Of a stretch of DNA of 64,000 nucleotides, positions 10,901 through 21,838 are shown piece after piece. The stretch's first letter is position 1. Each line of letters opens with the position of its first letter. The notes under the pieces are model-generated. The model made no database searches. It was given only the letters and a program-made list of their open reading frames with translations, and was not told where the DNA came from. The translations under genes were made by a program, and so were the position numbers. Source of the DNA: Ostreococcus lucimarinus (lineage: Eukaryota); NCBI GenBank assembly GCA_000092065.1, contig CP000584.1. The stretch is one strand, 5' to 3'.

Positions 10901-12279
10901 TTCACCTTGGCCAAACAACGTTCGGGAAGCGAACCGTCTAGACGATACGCTGGATCTTCGAGCCAGTACACTGTCGCCGTGATATTTTCACTTAAGGACG
11001 CCGCTGTCACGCACTCGACACCATTCAATGCAAGTTTGGCGTGACCCATTTGCATCGACACGCAGTCGTCACGCAAGACTACACCGCACCTGTCATCGGC
11101 GCCAACCGAAGAAAGATGCAAAACCAACTCATGGTCGTCGTCGAACCCGTAAATACATCGCGCGTCACTCCAGCTCACATCTAATCGATCCGACAATTCA
11201 ATTCTAATCGCCGTCATCGTCAGTTTGCACACCACGTCGTCGAACGGCGCATCCATAGAAAACTGTGGACATTGAACGGTGAAGACCGTCGTTGCACTCG
11301 AAGGCTCCGCGGAAGAATCGATACCCAATGATTCCGACAACTCCCGTATTGCTACCTCTGCGTCGTCGAAGAACTCTTCGTTCAGCTCCTCGTTTGAGTC
11401 TTCGTAAACGCTGTCACCCATGCTCTCGCCCATGGCGTCGTTCGCTTCCTCATACGCGCTTGCGTACATGGCGGCCGACCCACTCGATAGCACATCGTCG
11501 ATGAATGAACGTCGCGGTCTCGACGTCGATGGCCGTTTTAGGCGAGCAGAAGATGCATTGGAACCAAATGCGTTCACGAGATCGACGAAATTCTTCACCG
11601 CGTGCACTGTAGCCGTCGTTTCGATGGTCTCCAACTCGACGTCGACGCGACTGAAATCACTTGGTATCTCTGCGTGCCCGGAAACGTCGCGCACCACGAC
11701 CTCGGACACCGAACATTCAACGCCAGTTGCGATTCGTCGCACAGACATCCCCGAGAAACTCACCCCTTGCCCGTGCGTATACTCTGCCGATTCGAGTCGC
11801 ACGAGAAACTTGCCCGCGCCCGCTGCGTCTTGCACCACTACGTTTACCCCTCTCAATCGCGCCTTGAGCCCACGACAGAGCGCATTCAACGCTTGCCGCA
11901 TGATCGCCGACCCTTGCGCGCGCGCGCCATCCTCTCTCTCGAGCGCGTCAAACACCTCCGCTTCGCCGCTCCCCGCGCTCGGTCGCGTCGTCACCGTCAC
12001 GTCCTCGAGCTCCAACGAGCACGACTCCCTCCCGATCGCCTCCCACGGAATCCGCCCCGTGACCGCCCCCACGCGCACCGCCACCAACTCCATACCCGTT
12101 CGCGCCTCAAAGTCGCCCGTCCACGCCGTGACGACGTTCGCGTCGAGCTCGACGTCCTCGAGTCTCGCCTCGCCCGCGCTCGCGTCCACTCTCGCTCGCC
12201 CGCGTTCGCCCTCACCGCCGCCGTCGCGCACCAACCGCGCGATCGCGCGTGATATGAAGTACTCGCATATTTTCCGCAT
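7984..12279 (-). CDS. ATG2: Autophagy-related protein 2 (ATG2), a VPS13-like lipid-transfer protein of ~1431 aa with a Chorein_N N-terminus and an ATG2 C-terminal domain.
   Basis: The N-terminus MRKICEYFISRAIARLV...LEDVELDANVV...GRIPWEAIGRESCSLELEDVTVT resembles the chorein-N domain. The long C-terminal conserved block (...IEIDRLSLRLDYCG...) resembles the ATG2 C-terminal domain. It is a single 4.3-kb exon. The listed ORF extends upstream to 12822 only because the GC-rich leader lacks stops. Confidence 0.7.
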   Translation of the reverse strand: MRKICEYFISRAIARLVRDGGGEGERGRARVDASAGEARLEDVELDANVVTAWTGDFEARTGMELVAVRVGAVTGRIPWEAIGRESCSLELEDVTVTTRPSAGSGEAEVFDALEREDGARAQGSAIMRQALNALCRGLKARLRGVNVVVQDAAGAGKFLVRLESAEYTHGQGVSFSGMSVRRIATGVECSVSEVVVRDVSGHAEIPSDFSRVDVELETIETTATVHAVKNFVDLVNAFGSNASSARLKRPSTSRPRRSFIDDVLSSGSAAMYASAYEEANDAMGESMGDSVYEDSNEELNEEFFDDAEVAIRELSESLGIDSSAEPSSATTVFTVQCPQFSMDAPFDDVVCKLTMTAIRIELSDRLDVSWSDARCIYGFDDDHELVLHLSSVGADDRCGVVLRDDCVSMQMGHAKLALNGVECVTAASLSENITATVYWLEDPAYRLDGSLPERCLAKVKNRREANETDTCLREQLANDASLFVKLNVPIIETRLSIDVVESVSTIIQSMYELPDNHPMALRVATPDSVMTPLAFGIDVGALRMQLDAPLTDGTCSTSTDDDSVLVECELRRARVFAATNIAGVLGSDFVWTQFDSARVTTDNVETVFVECRSSDQGASKSSLAFARMEGEPACADVNVVGMSASLTQCEPLIRRLNTFAPARDVDADTNVCDSSTLCFSLSLFELVLIYKSNDSFALIQNDFLRISSKGVECSHDAGVSTSFGVEMYCNEISAFMVPPEIKATDGIRTLPAFPFTNSTICAARFAPVMNAKAISLITSSSSSKTAIATVSTRSCVVSLQRDILRALKRLFMSEVEGADRPASPASGDENEYVFVSPVKKARDISHARYSSSVTEHEIAAATRDHDEMFPRRLEGQKRGSTETSEAHHRSLLVRRDTNARVGPNIIENFFYRSNRRVRRKRKTVLLAAGSVTAVRKHSSSRARAGGVNASIMSRSRFAGEFVEARLPAMPPSLPRVGDHAHTRYLPLPKDVVVPQSTVHVNGETFDVHILPGLFWSESPTSLPRHADSVEVDPLGVSAGIKLSLKTNTVRVDSFPQREGETAHRIACAVRDAVCTDVTAGATWPNVLKYDVLSGERGDRSDMCSLDIMAVRPDAKTPSEVEYLFKASSIPIHVKLDQRVLKLALDVFADDSDDSSHVASPPREESIYFQKIEIDRLSLRLDYCGRQVDIDSLRSGNLLEALNLVPWDGVLLDIQPLRLTGIAGVVPVVQTAVNAWLDDITRTQAHKFVQSVKPIKSATNIGRRAAGLVSKPLEFHRNNRRGGVVAGFALGVASFVKEVSLSSIELGAFAAGQSAALLAAAEGMIVDAEREIEDVSSPTNVFHGLSLASKTAWRGARRATDALVVEPIRDYATGDVTSSAALLGAVRKVPYAAVTGAKGFTKAVDHALSGAVASFRPPSRDADASCDADDFP

Positions 12280-12552
12280 CCTCGCTCGCTCTCGCGCGCG
12301 CGCGTCCCCGCCGTCGCCGCGCCGACGAAATCCGAGGTGCCGAGTGACAGGTGCGTCGCGTTCGCGTCGCGCGTTTAAATTCTGCGCCTCGCCCGCGCGC
12401 GCGAGCTCGCGCGCGCGCCGCGAGCCTTCGCGCGCGACCGATCGACGCCTCGCGACGGCGTTCGCGCGCGCGCGCGCGTGTGGTGCCGCGGGTCGATGCG
12501 CGCTCGAATCGCACCGCACATCGCGACGCGTCGCTCGCGACCGATCGCGCGC

Positions 12553-12768
12553 ATGACGCGCACGGAGGTCACGCTCGCGGTCGACTTCGCGTGCGAAGGG
12601 TGCGCGGCGTCTGTGCGCAGGATCGCTGAGCGCATCGAGGGCGTGCGCGAGGTCGAGATCGACGTCGAGGCGAAGCGGTGCGTGGTGCGCGGGGACGCGT
12701 TGGACGCGGAGGACGTTCTCGCGCGCGTGCGCAAGTGTGGACGCGCGACGACGCTGCTGATGGAGTGA
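12553..12768 (+). CDS. Small heavy-metal-associated (HMA) domain protein, a putative copper chaperone (71 aa).
   Basis: MTRTEVTLAVDFACEGCAASVRRIAERIEGVREVEIDVEAKRCVVRG... has the HMA fold and a CxxC metal-binding motif. It is divergent from ATG2 with a 273-bp spacer. Confidence 0.55.
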   Translation: MTRTEVTLAVDFACEGCAASVRRIAERIEGVREVEIDVEAKRCVVRGDALDAEDVLARVRKCGRATTLLME

Positions 12769-12818
12769 CTTGCTCGTGTCCTGATGTTTTATTAGCGCGC
12801 GCGGGACGAATGGCACGA

Positions 12819-14234
12819 TCACGCGTCGTCGTCGTCGTCGCGCCGGCGGCCGCGGCGAACGGGCTTGGCGAACTTGGTCGCGACTTCGGGACCTTCGTCG
12901 TCGTCCTCGCCGTCGATGTCCCTGCCGTCGCAGACGTATAAAGCGACGAAAGTGCGACCGTAGCGCCGGTCGCGGACGCGGCGGAGACGCTTGCCGATGC
13001 TCGGGAGGATGTCACGCGCTTGGCCTTTGGCGTACTCGACGAGTAAAATGGTCGAGTCTTTGACCAGCGCCGACTCATCGAGCTGGAGGAGGAGCTCGGG
13101 ATACGATACTTTTTCGTACGGAGGGCAGAACGATATGAAATCGAACGCGCCGCCGACGCCTCGAGCGTTTTTGTGGTGCTGGTTCATGAAGGCTTGCACG
13201 CTTGCGGTGTGTGTCGTCGTTTGCTTGGTGAGACCGAGCGAATTCAGATTCTTGTTCGTGACGTTGTTCACCACCCAGGGGTCCATTTCGACGAAATGTG
13301 CCTCGACGACACCGCGCGATATCGACTCGATGCCGATCGCGCCAGTGCCGCAGAACATGTCCAACCATCTCGAGTCTGGCGGAAACTGCACGTTGCTTCG
13401 CGAACCGAGAAAGTTTAACATCATATCAAACGTCGCCCCACGCACCATGGACATCATCGGTCGCGTGTCTAAACCGCTCGGCGACAAAAGCTTTCTTCGT
13501 GCATACTTTCCAGCCACGATGGTCATGCGCTTGTGCGTTTTTCTCGTCGCCTCGTATTCCTTCTTCTTGTTAAACGTCGCCACCTCTTGTTTTTCCTCCT
13601 CGATTGCAAATAACAGATCCCTCGGTACCCCCATGCGCACCATGCGCTCGATGTCCTCCTTTTTCATCCCTTTATCATCCCTCTTTGCGTTTATCTCACT
13701 ACTTTCGCCCACCACGCGCTTCGGCTTCGCATCCGCCGCCGCGACGCCGCGCGGGTTCTTCTTCGGCGACTTTAACGACGTGTTCACCGCCTCCGAACTC
13801 CCACTCGCGCGATCGTTCTTCGTCGGCACGCGCACAAAGTCCATGACATATCCATTGCCACTGTCTTCGTCGTCGATGTTGAACAAATCTTCATTCGCCA
13901 CGCGCACGTTGGCGCCCTCCGGGACGAAGAACCAGTCGTCGTCCTCGTCGTCGTCCTCGTCGTCCCAGTCTTCATCGTCTTCGATCGCGATCGGGTCGTC
14001 GTCCTCCAAGTCTTCCTCGTTCCAAAACAATAAATCTTCCTCCGCGTCGGCCGCGCTGTCGTACTGTCCCTTGGCGCGCGTCGCGAGCGCGCGGCGCGGG
14101 AACGGAATCGACACGCGGTGGCGGCGGCGGCGGACGGGGACAGCGCGCGGTCGCGCGCACGACGTCGATGGCGGCGTCGCGACGCGAGAGCTCGACAGCA
14201 CGATTTGAGCGTGCGCGTGTGGCATCGCGCGCAT
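12819..14234 (-). CDS. RsmD-like (N6-adenine / m2G966 class) RNA methyltransferase with an organellar presequence and an acidic insert.
   Basis: RWLDMFCGTGAIGIESISRGVVEAHFVEMDPWVVNNV...FDFISFCPPYEKVSYPELL...TILLVEY shows the Cons_hypoth95/RsmD motifs (SAM-binding GxG and the PPY motif). The N-terminus is Arg/Ala-rich, followed by a poly-Asp/Glu stretch. Confidence 0.65.
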   Translation of the reverse strand: MRAMPHAHAQIVLSSSRVATPPSTSCARPRAVPVRRRRHRVSIPFPRRALATRAKGQYDSAADAEEDLLFWNEEDLEDDDPIAIEDDEDWDDEDDDEDDDWFFVPEGANVRVANEDLFNIDDEDSGNGYVMDFVRVPTKNDRASGSSEAVNTSLKSPKKNPRGVAAADAKPKRVVGESSEINAKRDDKGMKKEDIERMVRMGVPRDLLFAIEEEKQEVATFNKKKEYEATRKTHKRMTIVAGKYARRKLLSPSGLDTRPMMSMVRGATFDMMLNFLGSRSNVQFPPDSRWLDMFCGTGAIGIESISRGVVEAHFVEMDPWVVNNVTNKNLNSLGLTKQTTTHTASVQAFMNQHHKNARGVGGAFDFISFCPPYEKVSYPELLLQLDESALVKDSTILLVEYAKGQARDILPSIGKRLRRVRDRRYGRTFVALYVCDGRDIDGEDDDEGPEVATKFAKPVRRGRRRDDDDDA

Positions 14235-14317: not shown

Positions 14318-16111
14318 TCAATTCGACGCGGTCCAGAACGTTTCCTCGTTTTCGGCGCCGTAACCGACGTAACGAGGTCGACGTTTACCCGCGGGAGTGA
14401 AGTGCTTGAGATAAAATGGAAGCCCGCCCTCGACTTCGACGACGTCGTCGAAGACTTCGGCGAGCGCGCGCAAGGCGTCCAAATGATACGCCTCGGAGGC
14501 TTCGGCGGCATGAAAGACGACGACTGGGGACGATTTGTCGGCGTATTTGCCATCAGCGTTGATGTTGTCTATCATCACGTCCACGGCTGGGTTGTCCACG
14601 GCGTCTGATAAGCCACCCGTGCGAATCGCCGCGGGCATGGACGTTGCTCCCTTGAGCGTCTCTCGATTGAAGTCTTTGACGGGACGAATGTCAAAGACAA
14701 CGGCGCCGCCTTCGATCAAGCGCTGCGCCTCGCCAATATTTTCGACGCGCCATGGCAGGGGCTCTTCATCTTCCTCTTCTACGATCATGACAGGTTCGGC
14801 GTTTTTGGCGTGTTCCTGCACCGCGATTCGCAACTTTGCCTTCGCGTCCTCTCGCATCTTTACCGCCTCGGCGTCGGGCTCTTTCAACAATTTATCACGT
14901 GCTTCATCGCGCGCGGCTTTCCTCGTAGCCGCGCGTCGAGCGGCGACGAGCTCTTCGGGCTCTTGCCAACGCATGTACTCTCGAGCGAGCTGAATATTAT
15001 TCACGTTTTCTTGCTCGCCAACGACGTTGCGTCCGCACGCCAACAGCCGCTCCAGCGTGATCGTCACGTCGCCTAATTTCAACCTCCGACGTTCATCTAA
15101 ACCGACGAGCGAGTCATTTAAACCATCTAAGCCGACGTTGAACACGAAATCACTGACGGCGTCATCATACACACGCGCGCGTAACGCGCCGAAGAAATCT
15201 AAAGGCTGATTCGGAAATGTCGCGACGAGCGTTTCGCAACACGCCGTCGTCAACCCGTCATCCTTCATCATAGCGTGTATCATCTCAACCAACTCTTGCG
15301 ACGTCGGCTCCCACATCCAAAGATCCATTCGACCGTCTCTCGTTAGAGGCGCATACAGTCGAGAAAAATCATTCCCCGTGACGATGATTGGCACGCGCGC
15401 GTTGGTAGATTTGGAGTCCGTCCTCCAAACCAGTCCCTCGCTCACGATCGTGGGATTGTCACAAATGTTCATCAACGTCCCGTGCGTGATTTGATTATTT
15501 ACAGTCCCCAGATCGTCCTTAAACTTACCGATCCCGGCGTCGATGTCGTTGATAATAAGACAACTCAACTTCCCCGTCTCTCTCATCGCTCGCGCGGCGG
15601 TCAGATACCTTCGCCGCAACATCGCCCCGGGCTCCCCCGCCGTCGAATCCTCCAACTCCCCCGCGCTCGTTACGATCGGCTGCAACCCCATTTTCTTACA
15701 CGCCAACTCCACGTTCATCGTTTTGCCGCAACCCTTGTGTCCCCAAATCCCCAAAATTAACGCCGGAGACGTCGCGCCGAGCGCCCCCTTATCCTTCAAC
15801 AAGTTCTTCACCACGTGCGTCGCCACGCGCTCGGCGAAGCGTTCCGGCACGTGAAACCCATCGAGCGCGGCGAACGTTCGAAACTCACGCTCGCGATGTT
15901 CGCCCGTCGCGACGTCCGCGTCGACGCCGAGAACGCTTCCTTTAAAGAGCTCTTCTTCGACACCGCTGCGTTGCGAGTAGATGAAATCTTGCCCGCCGAG
16001 CGCGTCCTCGCGCGCCGCGCGTCGCGTTCGACCGCGCGAGACGCGCCCCTGACGCGCCACGCGCGCACCGACGGGCGCGCGCGACGTCCGCGCGGGCCCG
16101 CGCGGCGCCAT
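14318..16111 (-). CDS. RCA: Rubisco activase (green-type AAA+) continuing in the same ORF into a charged coiled-coil linker and a C-terminal rhodanese-like domain.
   Basis: LILGIWGHKGCGKT...SAGELEDSTAGEPGAMLRRRY...CLIINDIDAG...VPIIVTGNDFSRLYAPLTRDGRMDLWMWEPT is near-identical in pattern to plant and algal RCA. The ORF then runs without a stop through a K/E/A-rich linker into AVVFDIRPVKDFNRETLKGATSMP...SSPVVVFHAAEASEAYHLDALRALAEVFDDVVEVEGGLPFY, a rhodanese-homology fold with Ala in place of the active-site Cys. Start is Met 16111 or 16231. Confidence 0.85.
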   Translation of the reverse strand: MAPRGPARTSRAPVGARVARQGRVSRGRTRRAAREDALGGQDFIYSQRSGVEEELFKGSVLGVDADVATGEHREREFRTFAALDGFHVPERFAERVATHVVKNLLKDKGALGATSPALILGIWGHKGCGKTMNVELACKKMGLQPIVTSAGELEDSTAGEPGAMLRRRYLTAARAMRETGKLSCLIINDIDAGIGKFKDDLGTVNNQITHGTLMNICDNPTIVSEGLVWRTDSKSTNARVPIIVTGNDFSRLYAPLTRDGRMDLWMWEPTSQELVEMIHAMMKDDGLTTACCETLVATFPNQPLDFFGALRARVYDDAVSDFVFNVGLDGLNDSLVGLDERRRLKLGDVTITLERLLACGRNVVGEQENVNNIQLAREYMRWQEPEELVAARRAATRKAARDEARDKLLKEPDAEAVKMREDAKAKLRIAVQEHAKNAEPVMIVEEEDEEPLPWRVENIGEAQRLIEGGAVVFDIRPVKDFNRETLKGATSMPAAIRTGGLSDAVDNPAVDVMIDNINADGKYADKSSPVVVFHAAEASEAYHLDALRALAEVFDDVVEVEGGLPFYLKHFTPAGKRRPRYVGYGAENEETFWTASN

Positions 16112-16423
16112 CGCGCGAAACACTGTCGCTTCGGGACAAAAGTGCGCGCGAGACGACGGGGACACGAGCCGCGGGCGTTCGCGCGCCGCACAACGCGACG
16201 ACGACGCGCGCGACGCGCGCGCGCGGCGCACACGGGTCGACGCGCGAACGGCACGAACGTTGGCGGCGCGCGAACGACGCGCGGGGCGAAGGCGACGCGA
16301 CGTGGGACGATTGATGCGCGACGGTTCGAGCCGTTACTGCCGACGCGCAAACAATCGTCGACGCGTGCTGACGAAAGGCGCGCGCGCGAAGGTGGAGGAG
16401 CGAACGAGGAGTGGATAGTGATC

Positions 16424-19400
16424 ATGGATGATAAGGTAGAACGGCGCGAGCGCACGGCGCGAGCGCTTCGCGAGGCGGAGTACGCGAAGGCGCAGCGAGG
16501 AAACTTTTTCGTGAGGAATCACGCGCGCGCCAAGCGGTATTGGTACGAGTTGAATCAAAACGATACCTCGTTGTACTTGTTCCCGCCCAGGAGTGGCGTG
16601 CGAAGGAACGCGCAACGATTGATTGCGTGGAAGTGGTTCGAGAGGGTGACGATCATGCTCATCGTGGCGAACTGCTTCACGCTCGCGTTGTACCGGCCGC
16701 TGGAGAAGCACGGACGAACGAATCAAAATTTAGAAGTCGCCGAAACGATCTTTACGGTGATGTTCACGTTGGAGTTTTTAGCGCGCGTGGTGGCGAATAA
16801 CTTTATATTCGGTCCGCCCGAATCGGACGTGTACTTGAGGGATGGATGGCGAGTTTTAGATTTCACCGTCGTCATCGGCGGTTGGGTCTCCGTCGGAGTT
16901 ATGGTCGCTGGTGGATCTGGAGGAGGTCTCACAGCTATTCGAGGTATTCGTGCACTGAGACCACTGCGATCGATTTCAGGGTTCCCTGGATTGCGCGTGT
17001 TCGTCTCGACGACATTTGCGTCGATGGGTATGGTTAGGGATGTCGTGTTTTTCCTCTTCGTCGTAATGATAGTCTTGGGTATCCTCGGCGTGCAGCGCTA
17101 CGCGGGTAAGCTGTCGAACAGATGCGCGTACGCAAGCACACTCGATCTCGTCATGGAACAAATCGAGTTTCCGTGCTCAAAATCTACCGGCGGTCGTTCT
17201 TGTGGACCCATGCAAGTGTGCATCGCTACTGCGTTGACGGGCATGGACGACGGTCATTCAACTTTCAACAACATCATGGGTGCGGGATTTATAATTTATA
17301 GAGTTTTGACATTGCGTGGGTGGACAGATTTGATGTATCAAGTCATAGACGCCACCGGTGATCGTGTTTTGGCGATAATTTACTTCATCATCATCGTCGC
17401 CGTCGGCGCAATTTTTGTTTCATCCTTTATGTTGGCGGCGGTGACGACAAAGTATCGACAGACGGCAATTTTAGACGAAAAAAGGGCGCTGGACGCCGAG
17501 ACGGAAGACAAATCGAAAGCGTTGAGCAATCCAAAAAGTAAGAGAGTGCTGGCGAGCAGGAGGGCGGGCCGATTTAGCTATGGAGAGCGCCTGGAGCGAA
17601 TGATGGAACGACCGTTGGCGTTCATGCGGCGGGAGTTCATCTACCAGCGTTGGCTGCAGATGTTTGTGAAGCACAAGTATTTCGAAAATGGTATAACTAG
17701 TGCGATTGTGGTAAATACAATCATACTGGCGGTGCACTTTCGTGGTATGGGGAGCGAGATGGAGACAGCTGTGAATAATCTGAATTACTTGCTTTTGTCA
17801 GTCTTCGTGTTCGAGTTGGTGATGAAAGTACTCGCATTCGGAATTTTAGGATATAGCAAGGATCGCTACAATTTGTTCGACGCGACTGTTGTCACTGCCG
17901 GTCTGATAGAGCTGGCATATCGTAACAGCAGCTTGGCCGTCGCACGCGCGTTCCGTCTGTTGCGAGTGATGCGCACGACTCGCCTCATCACAAGAAACAA
18001 GAACATGCGGCGTTTGATAGATACCACCATGGAGAGCTTCAGTGCTATTCTGAACTTTTGCGGTGTCCTATTCGTCTTTGTTTTCGTCTTCACGGTTTTA
18101 GGCATGCAGCTATTTGGTGGACGCGACGAGTTTTGGGATGCGCGGCCGAATTTCAACACCTTTGGGGATAGTTTTCTCTCTGTATTCGAGATTCTGACGG
18201 GATCGCATTGGTACAAGTTGATGCTCGTCGCCATGAGTGGCTCGTACGGCGCCCCTGCAGCCTTGTTTTTCATTTGCTGGTCCTTCATCGGTTCATTTGT
18301 GCTGTTGAATCTCATCGCGGCGATGCTCATTGACACATTTTCACGCACGATGCGAGCAAAGGAGCTCGAACTCGAGCGTTTGCGCGAGGAAAAGAAAGAG
18401 ACGGAACGCCGAGAGGCCGAGGCCAAACGTCAACGAGAAATCAATACTCTTCTCGAGGGAAACAATGATGATGAGATGGATAAGGTGGAAGTGCACCAGG
18501 AAGGCATAAGCACGGAGTTAACACGGTTGATGAAACCAAACGAGATTCGACGCCATCCGGATGCCAAGCGCATCGTGAATAGGATGAATACACGCAAACA
18601 GCGAGCATTTGCGAGAGAGGTGCAGCTGATAGAAAGGTGGCTGGAGATAATAGGTTTCACAGAAAATGATAGTGATGTTGACAGCGATAGTGAAGACAAC
18701 GCGGTGGATGCCAATGAACAGCTCGTCAAGGACCGAGCACTTTTAGTTGACGAGTTGGCGGTTGATGATGGCGTGCCAGAGAGCCAACTGACGACGCTCA
18801 TGCGAGAAAAGGCATCTAGAAAAGTATCCGCACTTGTCGCTACTGGTATCCCGATTCCCATGGATGATCGCCAGGTAAGGGCGGCCTATCGACGTTGGAG
18901 AATTGACGCGGCGGCGGAACAAGGCAGCGATAGCGACGAAGACATGAATATCCAGAACACAAACACACTACGGGATGAGTACGGCGGTACAGCGGACGGC
19001 ACGGCTGCCAGTGCAATGGAGGTCCGAAGACACTTGCAAGAACATGCGCTCGCTGAACTTCGACGCAGTCTGTTGGAGCGTAGCGGCGAGTCGGGTACTA
19101 AAGACGCGCTTCAATGGGCGTCGCAGGCGCCCACAATTGGCTTGGCGATGAAGAGCGCGGAGGCTCGGATGCGACCAGAAGAACAAACTGCGATCATCGC
19201 ACAACGTCGAGCGGAGGGCAACAAAAGTGGTCATCTCGGCAAATTCAAAGGAGACGGAATGAGCGCCGAAGGCGCTGCCGCAATCGCCGAGGCAAATTTG
19301 CTGAGCATGCGAATTCGCGAATCAGAGCGCTTGGAAGCTATAAAGAAGAAACGTGGCCAATCAGTCGACGAGGACGTGCCCGCGGCGTCCGACGACGTCG

Positions 19401-21838
19401 ACGCCAACGATGGACTAGCTCCATCACCTGTCAATCCGCCGACGGAGCGGAAGACGGCTTCTTGGCGCGCCAGGGTGAAATCTACGCAGCCTGGCGAAGA
19501 ACGCAAGTCGTTGTCGGAATCGCTGCGAGGTATGGCTGATAGACCAAGACCCGGTCCCGTGACAGAGTCTTTCAACGAAGATAACATATCTAGTGCGTCA
19601 CCGAGCAGAGATGGAGATACGATGTCAAATTCACACTCGGCACGAAGTCCCCGCAACTCGCGTTCACGCGGTTCGCAAACAACTGGAGATTCTGCGCACG
19701 CGTACAACACCCTCGTGCCCATCGTGGAGTATACGTCGATGCCACCCTTGCTGAACATAGACTACAGCCTCCCGAGGATATCCGAAGACGTACACGCCGG
19801 TAAAGCCAGGAAGGCGTTGGGATTACCCGTGCGTGACATCGTTGTTGATGAGACGAAAATTGACAAATCTTCAAAGAAGAACATCGCCGAAGAGGACTGG
19901 TTACGCAATGCCGGTGCGACAAAGGATGAGATTTGCATGATGTACCCGTCGTTGGGTTTCATCAAGCCGCGACGCCCGATGCGACGTTTGCTATTCATGC
20001 TTATCAAGCATCCCGCGTTTGAGGCGCTCATGCTCGTTCTCATCGTATTCTCGTGCATCCAGCTCGCGCTCGACGCGCCCACAGTGCATCCAGAAAGTGA
20101 TTTGGCCAGCGTTCTCAAAGCAGCGGACGTATCTTTCACGCTCATATTTTTGGGCGAGGCAATCATAAAAGTAATTGCGATGGGCTTCGTTATGCACCCA
20201 GGAGCATACCTTCGATCTCCTGCGAACTGCTTTGACTTTTTCATTGTCATCGTATCGCTCGCCGTCGAAACCATGAGCGCGTCAGCACTGAAGTCTATGC
20301 GCAGCTTCAGGTTATTTCGAGCTCTGCGTCCTTTGCGCCTGTTAAATCGAGTTAAGAGTATGCAAATCGTCGTTGCGACGCTGCTTCACGTCCTACCTGA
20401 TCTTGGGAGTGTGATGCTGTTGGGATTGTTTCAGTTTTTGATTTTCGCAATTCTGGGCTCGCAGTTATTTGCTGGTAAATTTGATTACTGCAACGACCCT
20501 ACGGTCTCTGGAATGCACGCGTGCGTCGGGACGTTCGTTGACGAGAAAGGTGCACACGTGACTCGCCGGTGGCTCAATCCGCCACTGAACTTCGATAACA
20601 CCCTGCTCGCTCTACTGAGTCTCTTCGTCATCGTCACACGTGACGGATGGCTTTCTGTAGCGTTTCAAGGCATGGACTCAACGGATACGGACTTGCAGCC
20701 ATCTTTAAACAACAGTGGCTGGACAGCTATTTATTTTTTGAGCTTTATTGTGATCCTCTCTTTCGTCTGGTTGAGTATGATCGTCGCCCTCGTGTGCGAG
20801 AGTTACAAGAAGGCTTGTGTGTTGAGCAACTCGACGCAGACGCTCAACGCCGAGCAGCAAGAGTGGGCGGAAGTTTTGCGTATGAAAAAACACGACGCCG
20901 AGCTCAAAATATTGGATGACGACACAACCGGGGCGCCACGGTTTTTCATTCGAAAATCGGCTTACTCCTTAGCCACGAACCCTCGATTTGAGGCTTTCAT
21001 CGTTGGCTGCATCATTGCCAACACTATCACCATGGCGTCGTATCACGACGGACAACCGAAAGCCTATGCCGAAATTCAACGAGCGGCGAATGTGTTTTTC
21101 TCTTGGATCTTCTTGTTAGAGCTCTCGTTGAAAATGGTCGCACTGTTCCCGAAACGTTACTTTTCAGAGCGCTGGAACGTGTTTGATTTCATCATCGTCG
21201 TGGCTAGTATTCCCGACCTCGCAGGTGTGGATTTCGCCGGTACCACGGTGCTCCGCGTCATCCGACTTGGACGCGCGCTACGTCTGTTTAAACAAGCGAA
21301 GGGTCTACGTACGGTTTTCAATACGCTATTGAGCTCCTTTGAAAGCGCGTTTAACGTCGTTTTCCTGATATTCATGTTGATGTTTGTGTACGCGGTGCTT
21401 GGCATGAATCTCTTCGGCGACTACGAAACCACGTATCCGAGTGGACGTGTGGAGAACTTTCGGAACTTTGGCGCATCGCTTATGGTTCTCTTGCGAGTCA
21501 TCACGCGTGATAATTGGAAGCGTATCATGTTCGACACGATGAAATGTGAATACAATGTGGACGGCGTCGCGGCGAATTGCAGTTACATCTTCGTCCCGGC
21601 GCTCTTCTTCACGAGCTTCATATTGTTGGGGGCGTACGTGTTGTTGAGCCTTATCATCGCCTCCATTTTGGACAAATTTACTGAAAACGCTGTGAACGAG
21701 GGCCTGCTTTCGACGGCGAATATATTCGTCACTGTCCGTCGAAAGTTGCTGCTTGACACGTTTTCCACCAAGCTCAAGATGAAGCTCGACTCGTTCAAAG
21801 TGAAGAAGCCCACGAGAGGGGCACGAAAGAAAAAGTAG
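16424..21838 (+). CDS. Four-domain voltage-gated cation channel (Cav/Nav/NALCN superfamily), 1804 aa, single exon.
   Basis: There are four repeats, each with S1-S6. The S4 segments carry R/K every third residue (IRGIRALRPLRSI; AFRLLRVMRTTRLITR; SFRLFRALRPLRLLNR; LRVIRLGRALRLFKQAK). Pore loops align with Cav (FNNIMGAGFIIYRVLTLRGWTDLMY; FEILTGSHWYKLM; FVIVTRDGWLSV; LRVITRDNWKRIM). Long cytosolic I-II and II-III linkers are present. Confidence 0.85.
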   Translation: MDDKVERRERTARALREAEYAKAQRGNFFVRNHARAKRYWYELNQNDTSLYLFPPRSGVRRNAQRLIAWKWFERVTIMLIVANCFTLALYRPLEKHGRTNQNLEVAETIFTVMFTLEFLARVVANNFIFGPPESDVYLRDGWRVLDFTVVIGGWVSVGVMVAGGSGGGLTAIRGIRALRPLRSISGFPGLRVFVSTTFASMGMVRDVVFFLFVVMIVLGILGVQRYAGKLSNRCAYASTLDLVMEQIEFPCSKSTGGRSCGPMQVCIATALTGMDDGHSTFNNIMGAGFIIYRVLTLRGWTDLMYQVIDATGDRVLAIIYFIIIVAVGAIFVSSFMLAAVTTKYRQTAILDEKRALDAETEDKSKALSNPKSKRVLASRRAGRFSYGERLERMMERPLAFMRREFIYQRWLQMFVKHKYFENGITSAIVVNTIILAVHFRGMGSEMETAVNNLNYLLLSVFVFELVMKVLAFGILGYSKDRYNLFDATVVTAGLIELAYRNSSLAVARAFRLLRVMRTTRLITRNKNMRRLIDTTMESFSAILNFCGVLFVFVFVFTVLGMQLFGGRDEFWDARPNFNTFGDSFLSVFEILTGSHWYKLMLVAMSGSYGAPAALFFICWSFIGSFVLLNLIAAMLIDTFSRTMRAKELELERLREEKKETERREAEAKRQREINTLLEGNNDDEMDKVEVHQEGISTELTRLMKPNEIRRHPDAKRIVNRMNTRKQRAFAREVQLIERWLEIIGFTENDSDVDSDSEDNAVDANEQLVKDRALLVDELAVDDGVPESQLTTLMREKASRKVSALVATGIPIPMDDRQVRAAYRRWRIDAAAEQGSDSDEDMNIQNTNTLRDEYGGTADGTAASAMEVRRHLQEHALAELRRSLLERSGESGTKDALQWASQAPTIGLAMKSAEARMRPEEQTAIIAQRRAEGNKSGHLGKFKGDGMSAEGAAAIAEANLLSMRIRESERLEAIKKKRGQSVDEDVPAASDDVDANDGLAPSPVNPPTERKTASWRARVKSTQPGEERKSLSESLRGMADRPRPGPVTESFNEDNISSASPSRDGDTMSNSHSARSPRNSRSRGSQTTGDSAHAYNTLVPIVEYTSMPPLLNIDYSLPRISEDVHAGKARKALGLPVRDIVVDETKIDKSSKKNIAEEDWLRNAGATKDEICMMYPSLGFIKPRRPMRRLLFMLIKHPAFEALMLVLIVFSCIQLALDAPTVHPESDLASVLKAADVSFTLIFLGEAIIKVIAMGFVMHPGAYLRSPANCFDFFIVIVSLAVETMSASALKSMRSFRLFRALRPLRLLNRVKSMQIVVATLLHVLPDLGSVMLLGLFQFLIFAILGSQLFAGKFDYCNDPTVSGMHACVGTFVDEKGAHVTRRWLNPPLNFDNTLLALLSLFVIVTRDGWLSVAFQGMDSTDTDLQPSLNNSGWTAIYFLSFIVILSFVWLSMIVALVCESYKKACVLSNSTQTLNAEQQEWAEVLRMKKHDAELKILDDDTTGAPRFFIRKSAYSLATNPRFEAFIVGCIIANTITMASYHDGQPKAYAEIQRAANVFFSWIFLLELSLKMVALFPKRYFSERWNVFDFIIVVASIPDLAGVDFAGTTVLRVIRLGRALRLFKQAKGLRTVFNTLLSSFESAFNVVFLIFMLMFVYAVLGMNLFGDYETTYPSGRVENFRNFGASLMVLLRVITRDNWKRIMFDTMKCEYNVDGVAANCSYIFVPALFFTSFILLGAYVLLSLIIASILDKFTENAVNEGLLSTANIFVTVRRKLLLDTFSTKLKMKLDSFKVKKPTRGARKKK

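What the first reader, a model, noticed from the sequence alone, without database searches (positions are those of the whole stretch)
14318..16111. Rubisco activase ORF continues into a catalytically dead rhodanese-like domain
The green-type RCA AAA+ module (Walker A GHKGCGKT, ...TGNDFSRLYAPLTRDGRMD...) runs without a stop codon through a ~70-aa K/E/A-rich probable coiled-coil into a ~120-aa rhodanese-homology fold at ~14318..14755 (VVFDIRPVKDFNRETLKGATSMP...SSPVVVFHAAEASEAYHLDALRALAEV...VEGGLPFY). The position that should hold the catalytic Cys in the CRxGxR loop is Ala (FHAAEAS). To my knowledge canonical plant and Chlamydomonas RCAs end shortly after the AAA+ C-domain. An appended inactive rhodanese or phosphatase-like sensor domain would be an unusual architecture. 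It might couple activase function to redox, sulfur or phosphate status, or anchor it.
Basis: partly seen in the sequence, partly recalled or inferred. Interest (0 to 1): 0.6.

Follow-up and report, generated by a model that had tools for sequence, protein, structure and literature searches.

The report
Activase-like ATPase fused to dead rhodanese
This picoalgal (Ostreococcus-type) gene is not the cell's main Rubisco activase but an uncharacterised sister ATPase carrying a cysteine-free rhodanese domain and a highly conserved tail, a fusion conserved across early-branching green algae.

Summary
Window 14318..16111 (-) is one uninterrupted 597-codon ORF. It encodes an RCA-type AAA+ module, a 72-aa helical linker, a rhodanese domain (Pfam above cut-off, confident model, rhodanese-only fold matches) and a 22-aa tail. 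There is no cysteine after C359.

The interpretation needs correcting.
- This is not the canonical Rubisco activase. Its O. tauri orthologue is ostta04g02820. The gene treated as activase there is ostta04g02510, which is very abundant.
- An Ostreococcus-like environmental contig with ostta04g02510's gene neighbours carries a canonical, rhodanese-free RCA.
- In a bootstrapped tree the window protein falls outside the canonical clade (99%). It sits in an "RCA-like" superclade with ~430-aa plant and chlorophyte paralogues.
- It lacks the N-domain Trp, and the essential pore-loop Tyr is Gly202.
- The fusion is not a local oddity. It occurs in Ostreococcus, Bathycoccus, Cymbomonas, Pycnococcus, Prasinoderma, a Micractinium and a Micromonas-like lineage, in several paralogous forms.

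The disordered tail (…RPRYVGYG..NEETFWTASN) is the most conserved segment of the protein. The nearest stand-alone rhodanese family includes Chlamydomonas STR18, a pyrenoid-matrix protein.

Most likely the C-terminus is a non-catalytic docking module that directs the ATPase to a partner. That partner is unproven.

The parts
14318..16111 (-). Complete CDS (597 aa plus stop) of an RCA-like AAA+ / rhodanese fusion protein; orthologue of O. tauri ostta04g02820
   Evidence: ORF and translation. Identical protein called as one gene in the metagenome collection, listed in 581 index blocks (24 contigs read), same neighbours in the 3 loci shown. O. tauri orthologue P0007 has the same neighbours.
15908..16111 (-). 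N-terminal 68 aa: Arg/Ala-rich presequence (probable chloroplast transit peptide, inferred) and a disordered start of the N-domain (…LGGQDFIYSQRSG…)
   Evidence: pLDDT below 50 for residues 1-68. The composition is read from the sequence. No Trp occurs before W123.
15782..15907 (-). Structured part of the N-domain leading into the AAA+ core (aa 69-110)
   Evidence: Helix 90-107 at high pLDDT. Aligns to Arabidopsis RCA from residue 75.
15302..15781 (-). AAA+ alpha/beta subdomain (aa 111-270). Contains Walker A, Walker B LIINDIDAG (185-193), sensor-1 VTGNDFS (244-250) and Arg fingers TRDGRMD (257-263).
   Evidence: PF00004 hit. Catalytic columns are invariant across 49 homologues. 253 bits to Arabidopsis RCA 4w5w.
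15719..15742 (-). Walker A P-loop GHKGCGKT (aa 124-131)
   Evidence: K126, G127, G129 and K130 are invariant.
15506..15508 (-). Gly202, at the position of the essential pore-loop-2 tyrosine of true activases (NtRca Tyr188, NosRca Tyr116)
   Evidence: Alignments to 4w5w, 3t15 and 6z1d. Role of the Tyr: Flecken et al. preprint.
14972..15301 (-). RCA-specific alpha-helical AAA+ lid subdomain (aa 271-380), including sensor-2 GALRARVYD (308-316)
   Evidence: PF21228, E 5.9e-24..
14756..14971 (-). 72-aa charged linker (aa 381-452), predicted as two long helices followed by an acidic stretch
   Evidence: 67% K/E/A/R/D. Helices 385-408 and 414-437. Least conserved segment, 0.26.
14387..14755 (-). Cysteine-free rhodanese homology domain (aa 453-575), STR18-type
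   Evidence: PF00581 above cut-off. PDB profile hits. Model pLDDT 86.5. Foldseek matches. hhalign to Chlamydomonas Cre16.g663150: probability 99%, E 2e-18.
14507..14512 (-). His534-Ala535, the position of the catalytic Cys of active rhodaneses
   Evidence: HMM alignment to 1tq1. Alignment of 30 homologues, none with a Cys at the loop position (His534/Ala535). No Cys after C359.
14321..14386 (-). C-terminal 22-aa tail KRRPRYVGYGAENEETFWTASN: mostly disordered (pLDDT <50 for its last 15-17 residues) but the most conserved segment, so a candidate short linear docking motif
   Evidence: pLDDT below 50 in both models. Conservation is 0.81, against 0.69 for the AAA core. The …[FW]-T-A-S-N end recurs in distant fusions and in sequences with no detectable RCA match, some possibly fragments.

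Best explanation
SHOWN. The locus is a real, intron-less, single gene. It encodes a paralogue of Rubisco activase from the 'RCA-like' lineage, not the canonical activase. A complete AAA+ module with every ATPase motif intact is joined by a two-helix linker to a cysteine-free rhodanese domain. The protein ends in a strongly conserved, disordered 22-residue peptide.

INFERRED. The protein forms an RCA-type hexameric ATPase in the chloroplast. The rhodanese domain and tail do no chemistry. They act as a docking or adaptor module, one per subunit and so six per ring, that brings the ATPase to a specific partner or place. The likeliest partner is Rubisco or a Rubisco-associated complex. The logic matches the SSUL domain on the C-terminus of cyanobacterial Rca. 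Because the N-domain Trp and the pore-loop-2 Tyr are missing, the remodelling reaction probably differs from canonical Rubisco reactivation.
For: Single gene: the ORF is continuous. The identical protein is listed in 581 index blocks of the metagenome collection; it is called as one gene with the same neighbours in the 3 loci shown. Collinear orthologues exist in O. tauri (74% identity), Bathycoccus and a Micromonas-like lineage. The O. tauri orthologue ostta04g02820 is listed among rhythmically transcribed genes.

Paralogue, not canonical RCA:
- By gene order the O. tauri orthologue is ostta04g02820, whereas the published 'RuBisCO activase' is ostta04g02510.
- Locus L060 (GC 58%) carries a 373-aa canonical RCA without rhodanese. 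It lies between a Na/sulfate symporter and an unassigned ORF on one side (where O. tauri has a PsbP-like gene) and Snf7 and NIF genes on the other. That is the ostta04g02490-02530 order.
- In the NJ tree the canonical clade has 99% bootstrap support and the RCA-like superclade containing the window protein has 74%.
- The window protein scores 253 bits to Arabidopsis RCA but about 305-330 bits to ~430-aa plant and chlorophyte RCA-like proteins.

ATPase-competent: the Walker A and B, sensor and Arg-finger columns are invariant.

Non-catalytic C-terminus: none of 30 homologues has a Cys at the loop position (His534/Ala535), and the loop is acidic or Gly-rich and variable. The window protein has no Cys after C359.

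Docking motif: the tail is disordered yet is the most conserved segment.

Link to Rubisco: the closest stand-alone rhodanese family includes Chlamydomonas Cre16.g663150 (STR18), with hhalign probability 99%. STR18 is a pyrenoid-matrix protein (PMC10473226). It shares the post-domain motif T-x-[SG]-G-[KR]-R-R-P-x-x-G with the window protein.

Precedent: the SSUL domain on NosRca binds Rubisco independently of ATPase activity.
Against: No partner has been identified and nothing shows binding to Rubisco.

STR18 carries WR-type motifs in its own C-terminal extension. Those motifs could by themselves explain its pyrenoid location, so the rhodanese fold itself may not contact Rubisco.

Ostreococcus and Bathycoccus are not known to have pyrenoids (my own knowledge), so condensate targeting cannot be the general role.

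The O. tauri orthologue does not appear in the stored part of the protein-abundance table, whereas canonical RCA is among the most abundant proteins. That points to a low-copy factor.

The function of the whole RCA-like lineage is unknown, land-plant members included.

The monomer model gives no sign that the tail docks onto the protein itself, but it cannot test binding between subunits or to other proteins.
Confidence: 0.45

Rival explanations
1. Sensor model. The dead rhodanese domain senses redox, sulfur, phosphate or another small ligand and tunes the ATPase allosterically. This would be analogous to the redox-active C-terminal extension of the plant RCA alpha-isoform.
For: Rhodanese and Cdc25 loops are classical anion-binding sites (established knowledge). 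RCA family members are known to be regulated through C-terminal extensions. The linker is modelled as ordered helices and could transmit a signal.
Against: There is no Cys in the last 238 residues, so thiol redox or persulfide chemistry is impossible. The loop equivalent is HAAEASE in Ostreococcus, DDNGNE in Bathycoccus and DGGGDGS in the Micromonas-like form. It is acidic, lacks Arg or Lys, and varies in length, which is the opposite of a conserved anion pocket. The strongest constraint lies in the disordered tail, not in the loop.
Confidence: 0.15
2. This is the organism's bona fide Rubisco activase with an extra domain, and it performs ordinary Rubisco reactivation.
For: UniRef names orthologues 'Ribulose bisphosphate carboxylase/oxygenase activase'. 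The AAA+ core and the RCA-specific lid are intact. Reviews use Mamiellophyceae 'RCA' entries without comment on domains.
Against: A separate canonical RCA exists in Ostreococcus-type genomes. The O. tauri gene treated as RCA, ostta04g02510, is abundant. The window protein falls outside the canonical clade. It lacks the N-domain Trp that CrRca needs for function (PMC13172511). The essential pore-loop-2 Tyr188 is Gly.
Confidence: 0.12
3. Auto-regulation model. The conserved C-terminal peptide is an intramolecular or inter-subunit plug that occupies the ring pore or a nucleotide-site pocket of the protein's own hexamer. The rhodanese domain serves mainly as a spacer.
For: The tail is extremely conserved but disordered in the monomer. 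It ends in an aromatic, small-residue carboxy-terminus, the kind of feature AAA+ rings often recognise (general knowledge, not tested here).
Against: The same …WTASN end occurs in sequences with no detectable RCA match, some of them possibly fragments (P0165, P0174, P0184). That argues for an external receptor. Tail confidence does not rise in the full-length model.
Confidence: 0.1
4. Active sulfurtransferase or phosphatase domain fused to an ATPase.
For: JGI pipelines label relatives 'rhodanese-related sulfurtransferase'.
Against: There is no cysteine anywhere in the domain, and none at the loop position (His534/Ala535) in any aligned homologue.
Confidence: 0.01

Closest known systems
Canonical green-type Rubisco activase (Arabidopsis 4w5w, tobacco 3t15; O. 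tauri ostta04g02510-type)
   Same: It has the same AAA+ core and RCA-specific helical lid (253 bits, alignment over residues 75-381). All ATPase motifs are shared, and so is the end of the AAA+ module (…EQENV..QLA).
   Different: It falls in a separate clade. It has no N-domain Trp. Pore-loop-2 Tyr188 is Gly202. It adds 216 C-terminal residues (linker, rhodanese, tail). It sits at a different locus from the canonical gene in Ostreococcus.
~430-aa 'RCA-like' paralogues of land plants and core chlorophytes (e.g. Gossypium P0106, Sorghum P0114, Chlorella P0089). I believe these correspond to Arabidopsis At1g73110 and Chlamydomonas RCA2, but that is from memory and was not tested.
   Same: They share the superclade and signature motifs: TVNNQI.xGTLMN, …VSxGxxWR, and an N-domain G.D(F/Y)(I/L)Y…LF.G..LG.D.D. 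They score higher to the window protein than canonical RCA does. Their function is also unknown; At1g73110 appears only in omics lists.
   Different: They stop right after the AAA+ module, with no linker, rhodanese domain or tail.
Cyanobacterial Rca with a C-terminal SSUL domain (Nostoc NosRca, 6z1d/6z1f)
   Same: It has an RCA-family AAA+ core, a flexible linker and one extra C-terminal domain per subunit. In Nostoc that domain is a Rubisco-docking module dispensable for ATPase and activase activity. This is the functional analogy proposed here.
   Different: The appended fold is unrelated (SSUL versus rhodanese). The SSUL domain has a redox disulfide, whereas this domain has no Cys. Rubisco binding is demonstrated for SSUL and only hypothesised here.
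Chlamydomonas STR18 (Cre16.g663150) family of plastid rhodanese proteins; O. tauri stand-alone copy P0401
   Same: It is the closest stand-alone single-domain relative found here for the window's rhodanese domain (hhalign 99%, E 2e-18). It shares the post-domain motif (F/Y)T(T/P).G(K/R)RRP..G. Its catalytic Cys is not conserved across the family. STR18 sits in the Rubisco matrix of the pyrenoid.
   Different: It is a stand-alone ~220-300-aa protein with no ATPase. After the shared motif it continues …WVSTG.EALKSGLN… rather than YVGYG..NEETFWTASN.
Other non-catalytic rhodanese domains used as interaction modules (USP8, MAPK-phosphatase N-domains; plant TROL and CAS, from memory)
   Same: They have a rhodanese fold lacking the catalytic Cys and are used for protein-protein contacts. 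USP8 (2gwf) and DUSP16 (2vsw) appear among the fold matches.
   Different: Only fold-level similarity was seen (10-20% identity). The partners are unrelated.

Membership tests
Canonical green-type Rubisco activase | AAA+ core with the RCA-specific helical lid (PF21228) and intact Walker A/B, sensor 1/2 and Arg fingers | tested here: met
Canonical green-type Rubisco activase | N-terminal domain with the conserved Trp (CrRca Trp-9) required for Rubisco activation | tested here: not met
   No Trp occurs before W123. The requirement is documented in PMC13172511. The canonical Ostreococcus-type protein in L060 has …SRWKGMDEDISDDQQDITRG.
Canonical green-type Rubisco activase | Pore-loop-2 aromatic residue (NtRca Tyr188, NosRca Tyr116), essential in plant Rca | tested here: not met
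   Gly202 aligns to it. Its role is stated in the Flecken et al. preprint.
Canonical green-type Rubisco activase | Phylogenetic placement inside the canonical clade and orthology to the gene treated as RCA in the genus | tested here: not met
   The canonical clade (99% bootstrap) excludes it. Its orthologue is ostta04g02820, not ostta04g02510.
Canonical green-type Rubisco activase | ATP-dependent release of inhibitory sugar phosphates from Rubisco | not testable with these tools
   Needs a biochemical assay.
RCA-like paralogue lineage of Viridiplantae | Groups with the ~430-aa plant and chlorophyte RCA-like proteins to the exclusion of canonical RCA, and shares their motifs | tested here: met
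   Superclade support is moderate, 74% bootstrap in an NJ tree. Motifs. Higher bit scores.
Rhodanese homology domain (PF00581) | HMM match above the curated cut-off and an alpha/beta rhodanese fold | tested here: met
   24.0 and 27.5 bits against a cut-off of 22.2. PDB profile hits. Model pLDDT 86.5 and rhodanese-only fold matches.
Catalytic rhodanese / Cdc25 (sulfurtransferase or phosphatase) | Nucleophilic Cys at the start of the active-site loop | tested here: not met
   His534/Ala535 occupy the position. The domain has no Cys, and no aligned homologue has one at the loop position.
STR18-type plastid rhodanese subfamily | Closest profile similarity plus the shared post-domain motif T-x-[SG]-G-[KR]-R-R-P-x-x-G | tested here: met
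   hhalign probability 99%, E 2e-18, with the motif aligned. Family sequences.
STR18-type plastid rhodanese subfamily | Location in the Rubisco matrix | not testable with these tools
   Known only for Chlamydomonas STR18 (PMC10473226).
Cyanobacterial Rca-SSUL | C-terminal Rubisco small-subunit-like domain | tested here: not met
   The C-terminal domain is a rhodanese, not an SSUL.
Redox-regulated RCA alpha-isoform | C-terminal extension with a regulatory Cys pair | tested here: not met
   No Cys after C359.

The most novel reading that the evidence does not exclude
Green algae and plants inherited two ancient activase lineages. The second, 'RCA-like' lineage originally carried a non-catalytic STR18-type rhodanese domain and a C-terminal docking peptide that tether the ATPase ring to Rubisco or a Rubisco-bound partner. 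This would be an independent eukaryotic counterpart of the cyanobacterial Rca-SSUL solution. The module was later lost in land plants and most core chlorophytes, and split off as stand-alone STR18-like proteins that still work alongside Rubisco.
Probability: 0.2. Interest if true: 0.7.

Novelty: new variant of a known kind. Interest (0 to 1): 0.5.

Why it matters
Rubisco activase is a main target for improving photosynthesis, yet the second RCA-like lineage, which is also present in crops, has no known function.

The prasinophyte proteins add two built-in clues to that lineage. One is a fused domain whose closest free-standing relatives include a pyrenoid-matrix protein. The other is a C-terminal peptide under stronger constraint than the ATPase core. 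Both can be used directly as baits to find the partner.

The result also corrects an annotation trap. Databases name these proteins 'Rubisco activase, chloroplastic', so expression studies or phylogenies in Mamiellophyceae can pick the wrong gene. Ostreococcus has at least three RCA-family lineages: the canonical one, type A and type B.

O. tauri is genetically tractable, so the hypotheses can be tested.

Tried and rejected
1. Is it the sole RCA of the organism? I first assumed ostta04g02510 (the published 'RuBisCO activase') was the orthologue. The gene order in the paper's supplement and in locus L001 showed the orthologue is ostta04g02820.
2. A word-indexed homologue search with the C-terminal 160 aa returned only fragments of the same fusions. 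The exhaustive profile search was needed to reach stand-alone relatives.
3. Four full-text literature searches found no paper describing the fusion: RCA plus rhodanese; Rca/rhodanese/AAA+; RCA plus Ostreococcus; RCA plus Micromonas. At1g73110 appears only in omics lists.
4. Whether the RCC809 'Rubisco activase Od04g02820' is this gene or the canonical one could not be resolved from the stored supplement.
5. The afdb50 fold library was unavailable.
6. The full-length monomer model did not raise the confidence of the tail, so it gives no evidence for intramolecular docking.
7. The Chlamydomonas Rubisco-binding motif [D/N]W[R/K]xx[LIVA] does not fit the tail (FWTASN), so I rejected that reading.
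8. No second RCA-like or rhodanese ORF, and no other …WTASN* ORF, exists in the 64-kb window.
9. A first bootstrap run with Biopython's distance calculator timed out. I repeated it with my own Kimura distances.
Full report
**1. What is in the sequence**

Window 14318..16111 on the minus strand is an uninterrupted reading frame of 597 codons plus a stop. The frame is open upstream to a GTG at 16231, but the first ATG is at 16111.

Pfam places three domains on the product:
- AAA (PF00004), aa 122-264, E 1.5e-13.
- The RCA-specific helical lid (PF21228), aa 273-367, E 5.9e-24.
- Rhodanese (PF00581), aa 461-564. It scores 24.0 bits in the full protein and 27.5 bits for the C-terminus alone, against a curated cut-off of 22.2.

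Three further results support the rhodanese assignment. A profile of 24 homologous C-termini hits solved rhodaneses, including Arabidopsis 1tq1 at E 2.6e-6 across the whole domain. An AlphaFold model of the last 159 residues has mean pLDDT 86.5. All of its best PDB fold matches are rhodanese domains, at probability 1.00 and rmsd 2.3-3.4 Å.

The region between the AAA+ module and the rhodanese domain (aa 381-452) is 67% K/E/A/R/D. It is modelled as two long helices.

The protein has no cysteine after C359.

**2. It is one real gene**

The identical 597-aa protein is listed in 581 index blocks of the metagenome/assembly collection; 24 contigs were read and 3 loci returned. In those three it is called as a single gene and has the same neighbours:
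- a four-domain voltage-gated channel, transcribed divergently;
- an RsmD-type methyltransferase;
- a small HMA protein;
- ATG2.

The O. tauri reference genome has the same arrangement on chromosome 4. Its orthologue, P0007, is 594 aa and 74% identical. Collinear orthologues with the full C-terminus occur in Bathycoccus and in a Micromonas-like lineage at 40-48% identity. The O. tauri gene is listed among rhythmically expressed transcripts. The window probably comes from an environmental Ostreococcus species, with GC around 58% and 74% protein identity to O. tauri.

**3. It is not the canonical Rubisco activase**

Four lines of evidence agree.

(a) Gene order. The supplement of PMC12216367 lists ostta04g02790 ATG2, 02800 HMA, 02810 RsmD methyltransferase, 02820 'P-loop NTPase' and 02830 voltage-dependent channel. 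That is exactly the neighbourhood of P0007 and of the window gene. The gene that paper shows as 'RuBisCO Activase' is ostta04g02510. It lies between a PsbP-like gene and a Snf7 gene, and its protein intensity is about 2^24.8. ostta04g02820 is absent from the stored part of the same protein table.

(b) A canonical gene exists elsewhere. A scan of metagenome contigs with canonical RCA sequences returned intron-less hits on large contigs with Bathycoccus-like (48%), Ostreococcus-like (58%) and Micromonas-like (67-69%) GC content. Locus L060 (GC 58%) encodes a 373-aa canonical RCA. It has the motifs …SRWKGMDEDISDDQQDITRG…, GGKGQGKTFQ and NVQLPGQY, and no rhodanese domain. On one side lie an unassigned ORF (at the position of O. 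tauri's PsbP-like gene) and a Na/sulfate symporter, and on the other Snf7 and a NIF phosphatase. This is the ostta04g02490-02530 order.

(c) Phylogeny. In a neighbour-joining tree of AAA+ cores with 200 bootstraps, canonical RCAs form a 99% clade. That clade contains Arabidopsis, tobacco and the environmental Mamiellophyceae-type sequences. The window protein lies in a separate superclade with 74% support. It scores 253 bits to Arabidopsis RCA but 305-330 bits to ~430-aa plant and chlorophyte proteins with distinct motifs. From memory, I believe these are the At1g73110 / Chlamydomonas RCA2 type. That equation was not tested here.

(d) Functional signatures. There is no Trp before W123, whereas the N-domain Trp is required for CrRca function and pyrenoid partitioning (PMC13172511). 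The pore-loop-2 tyrosine, essential in plant Rca (NtRca Tyr188, NosRca Tyr116), is Gly202 here.

The ATPase motifs themselves are all intact.

**4. The fusion is widespread and ancient**

Rhodanese-bearing members of the RCA-like superclade are found in O. tauri, O. lucimarinus, Bathycoccus, Cymbomonas, Pycnococcus, Prasinoderma, a Micractinium species and many uncultured marine lineages. Mamiellophyceae carry at least three forms:
- type A, the window type, ~600-720 aa with one rhodanese domain and the …WTASN end;
- type B, ~930-1030 aa with two rhodanese domains and in some cases a WW domain; the clusters include O. lucimarinus XP_001420873 and Bathycoccus proteins;
- type C, ~650-760 aa.

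Rhodanese-bearing and rhodanese-free members are interleaved in the tree. An early fusion followed by losses in land plants and most core chlorophytes is plausible. The deep nodes are weakly supported, so this is not proven.

No homologue has a Cys at the loop position (His534/Ala535). The loop is acidic or Gly-rich and varies in sequence and length: HAAEASE, DDNGNE, DGGGDGS. This argues against a conserved ligand pocket.

**5. The most constrained element is the tail**

I compared conservation among 20 type-A orthologues that are about 44-73% identical to the window protein overall. The figure is the mean fraction of sequences identical to the window residue:

| Segment | Conservation |
|---|---|
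| C-terminal 22 residues | 0.81 |
| AAA+ alpha/beta subdomain | 0.69 |
| Rhodanese domain | 0.46 |
| AAA+ helical lid | 0.44 |
| Linker | 0.26 |

Yet most of the tail is disordered: pLDDT is below 50 over its last 15-17 residues (581/583-597), both in the isolated domain and in the full-length model. The core pattern is (F/Y)TP.G..RPRYVGYG..NEET.(W/F)T(A/G/S)SN-COOH. The aromatic-W-T-A-S-N carboxy-terminus recurs in distant fusions. It also recurs in sequences with no detectable RCA match, some of them short and possibly fragments of fusions (P0165, P0174, P0184). This is how a short linear docking motif recognised by an external receptor behaves.

**6. Relatives of the rhodanese domain**

An exhaustive profile search found two groups beyond the fusions. 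One is bacterial multi-rhodanese proteins. The other is a family of ~220-300-aa green-algal proteins. The latter share the post-domain motif …(F/Y)T(T/P).G(K/R)RRP..G….

That family includes Chlamydomonas Cre16.g663150. It matches the window's domain profile with hhalign probability 99% and E 2e-18, with the motif aligned. Cre16.g663150 is STR18, one of the few proteins confirmed in the pyrenoid matrix, and its function is unknown (PMC10473226). O. tauri has its own stand-alone copy, P0401. The Cys is not conserved in this family either.

STR18 carries WR-type motifs in its own C-terminal extension. Those could account for its location, so the link to Rubisco is suggestive and not direct.

**7. 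Mechanism**

Shown:
- a paralogous AAA+ module whose ATPase motifs are all intact;
- a non-catalytic rhodanese fold;
- a hyper-conserved, disordered C-terminal peptide;
- a separate canonical RCA in the same genus.

Inferred, with confidence about 0.45: the protein forms an RCA-type ring in the chloroplast. The rhodanese domain and tail serve as an adaptor that docks the ring onto a partner, most plausibly Rubisco or a Rubisco-associated complex. This parallels the SSUL domain of cyanobacterial Rca, which binds Rubisco independently of the ATPase. The altered N-domain and pore loop suggest a remodelling reaction different from classical activation.

Rivals:
- small-molecule or redox sensor (0.15), disfavoured by the Cys-free, variable, acidic loop;
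- ordinary activase with an extra domain (0.12), disfavoured by section 3;
- self-plugging tail (0.10);
- active sulfurtransferase (0.01), refuted by the absence of any Cys.

**8. Novelty and verdict**

The architecture is visible in public domain pre-computations, and pipelines name these proteins either 'rhodanese-related sulfurtransferase' or 'Rubisco activase'. Four full-text searches found no paper that describes or studies the fusion. Reviews use Mamiellophyceae 'RCA' entries without comment.

I rate it a new variant of a known kind. It is real and conserved, and it is moderately interesting because it offers a handle on the function-less RCA-like lineage. It also exposes an annotation trap.

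Noticed in passing
window 16418..21838 (+), with spacer 16112..16417: A four-domain voltage-gated cation channel gene (1806 aa, repeated Ion_trans hits) is transcribed divergently from the RCA-like gene. The spacer between them is only 306 bp, in a ~73% GC patch. The mechanical ORF list extends the channel frame back to 15815, overlapping the RCA-like CDS, which is an ORF-calling artefact.
   Followed up: partly
window 12822..14234 (-): An RsmD-type methyltransferase (Cons_hypoth95, 470 aa) lies 83 bp downstream of the RCA-like stop codon. It has a long, very acidic (D/E-rich) N-terminal extension. The gene order is conserved in O. tauri (ostta04g02810).
   Followed up: partly
window ~12556..12771 (+) and below ~12397 (-): A small HMA (heavy-metal-associated) protein and the start of a ~1431-aa ATG2 gene, placed by synteny with identical metagenome contigs. 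Window 12000-13000 reaches about 69-72% GC.
   Followed up: no
L060:4824-5945 (+), contig Ga0255778_10000091: This is the canonical, rhodanese-free RCA of an Ostreococcus-like genome. Snf7 and NIF genes lie on one side. A 279-aa ORF with no Pfam hit (where O. tauri has a PsbP-like gene) and a Na/sulfate symporter lie on the other. The ORF as listed starts at MSRWKG…, so the transit peptide must be encoded upstream, from another start codon or a small upstream exon.
   Followed up: partly
Proteins P0065 and P0058 clusters (O. lucimarinus XP_001420873; Bathycoccus CAL62862xx): Mamiellophyceae have a further RCA-like paralogue of ~930-1030 aa with two tandem rhodanese domains and, in some cases, a WW domain. 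There is also a third form of ~650-760 aa ending …GTICVGSE…. These are a family expansion with no described function.
   Followed up: partly
Protein P0398 (Chlamydomonas Cre16.g663150, STR18), residues ~230-305: The C-terminal extension of STR18 contains several S-W-R motifs (SSWRRP, ASWREAL, and a C-terminal …YSAWR). They resemble the Chlamydomonas Rubisco-binding motif and could explain its pyrenoid-matrix location.
   Followed up: no
window aa 128 (Walker A, GHKGCGKT), about window 15728..15730: A cysteine sits inside the P-loop (GxKGCGK[ST]) in most rhodanese-bearing RCA-like proteins. Canonical RCA and plant RCA-like proteins have Gln there (GGKGQGK). This is a possible redox-sensitive site in the nucleotide pocket.
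   Followed up: no
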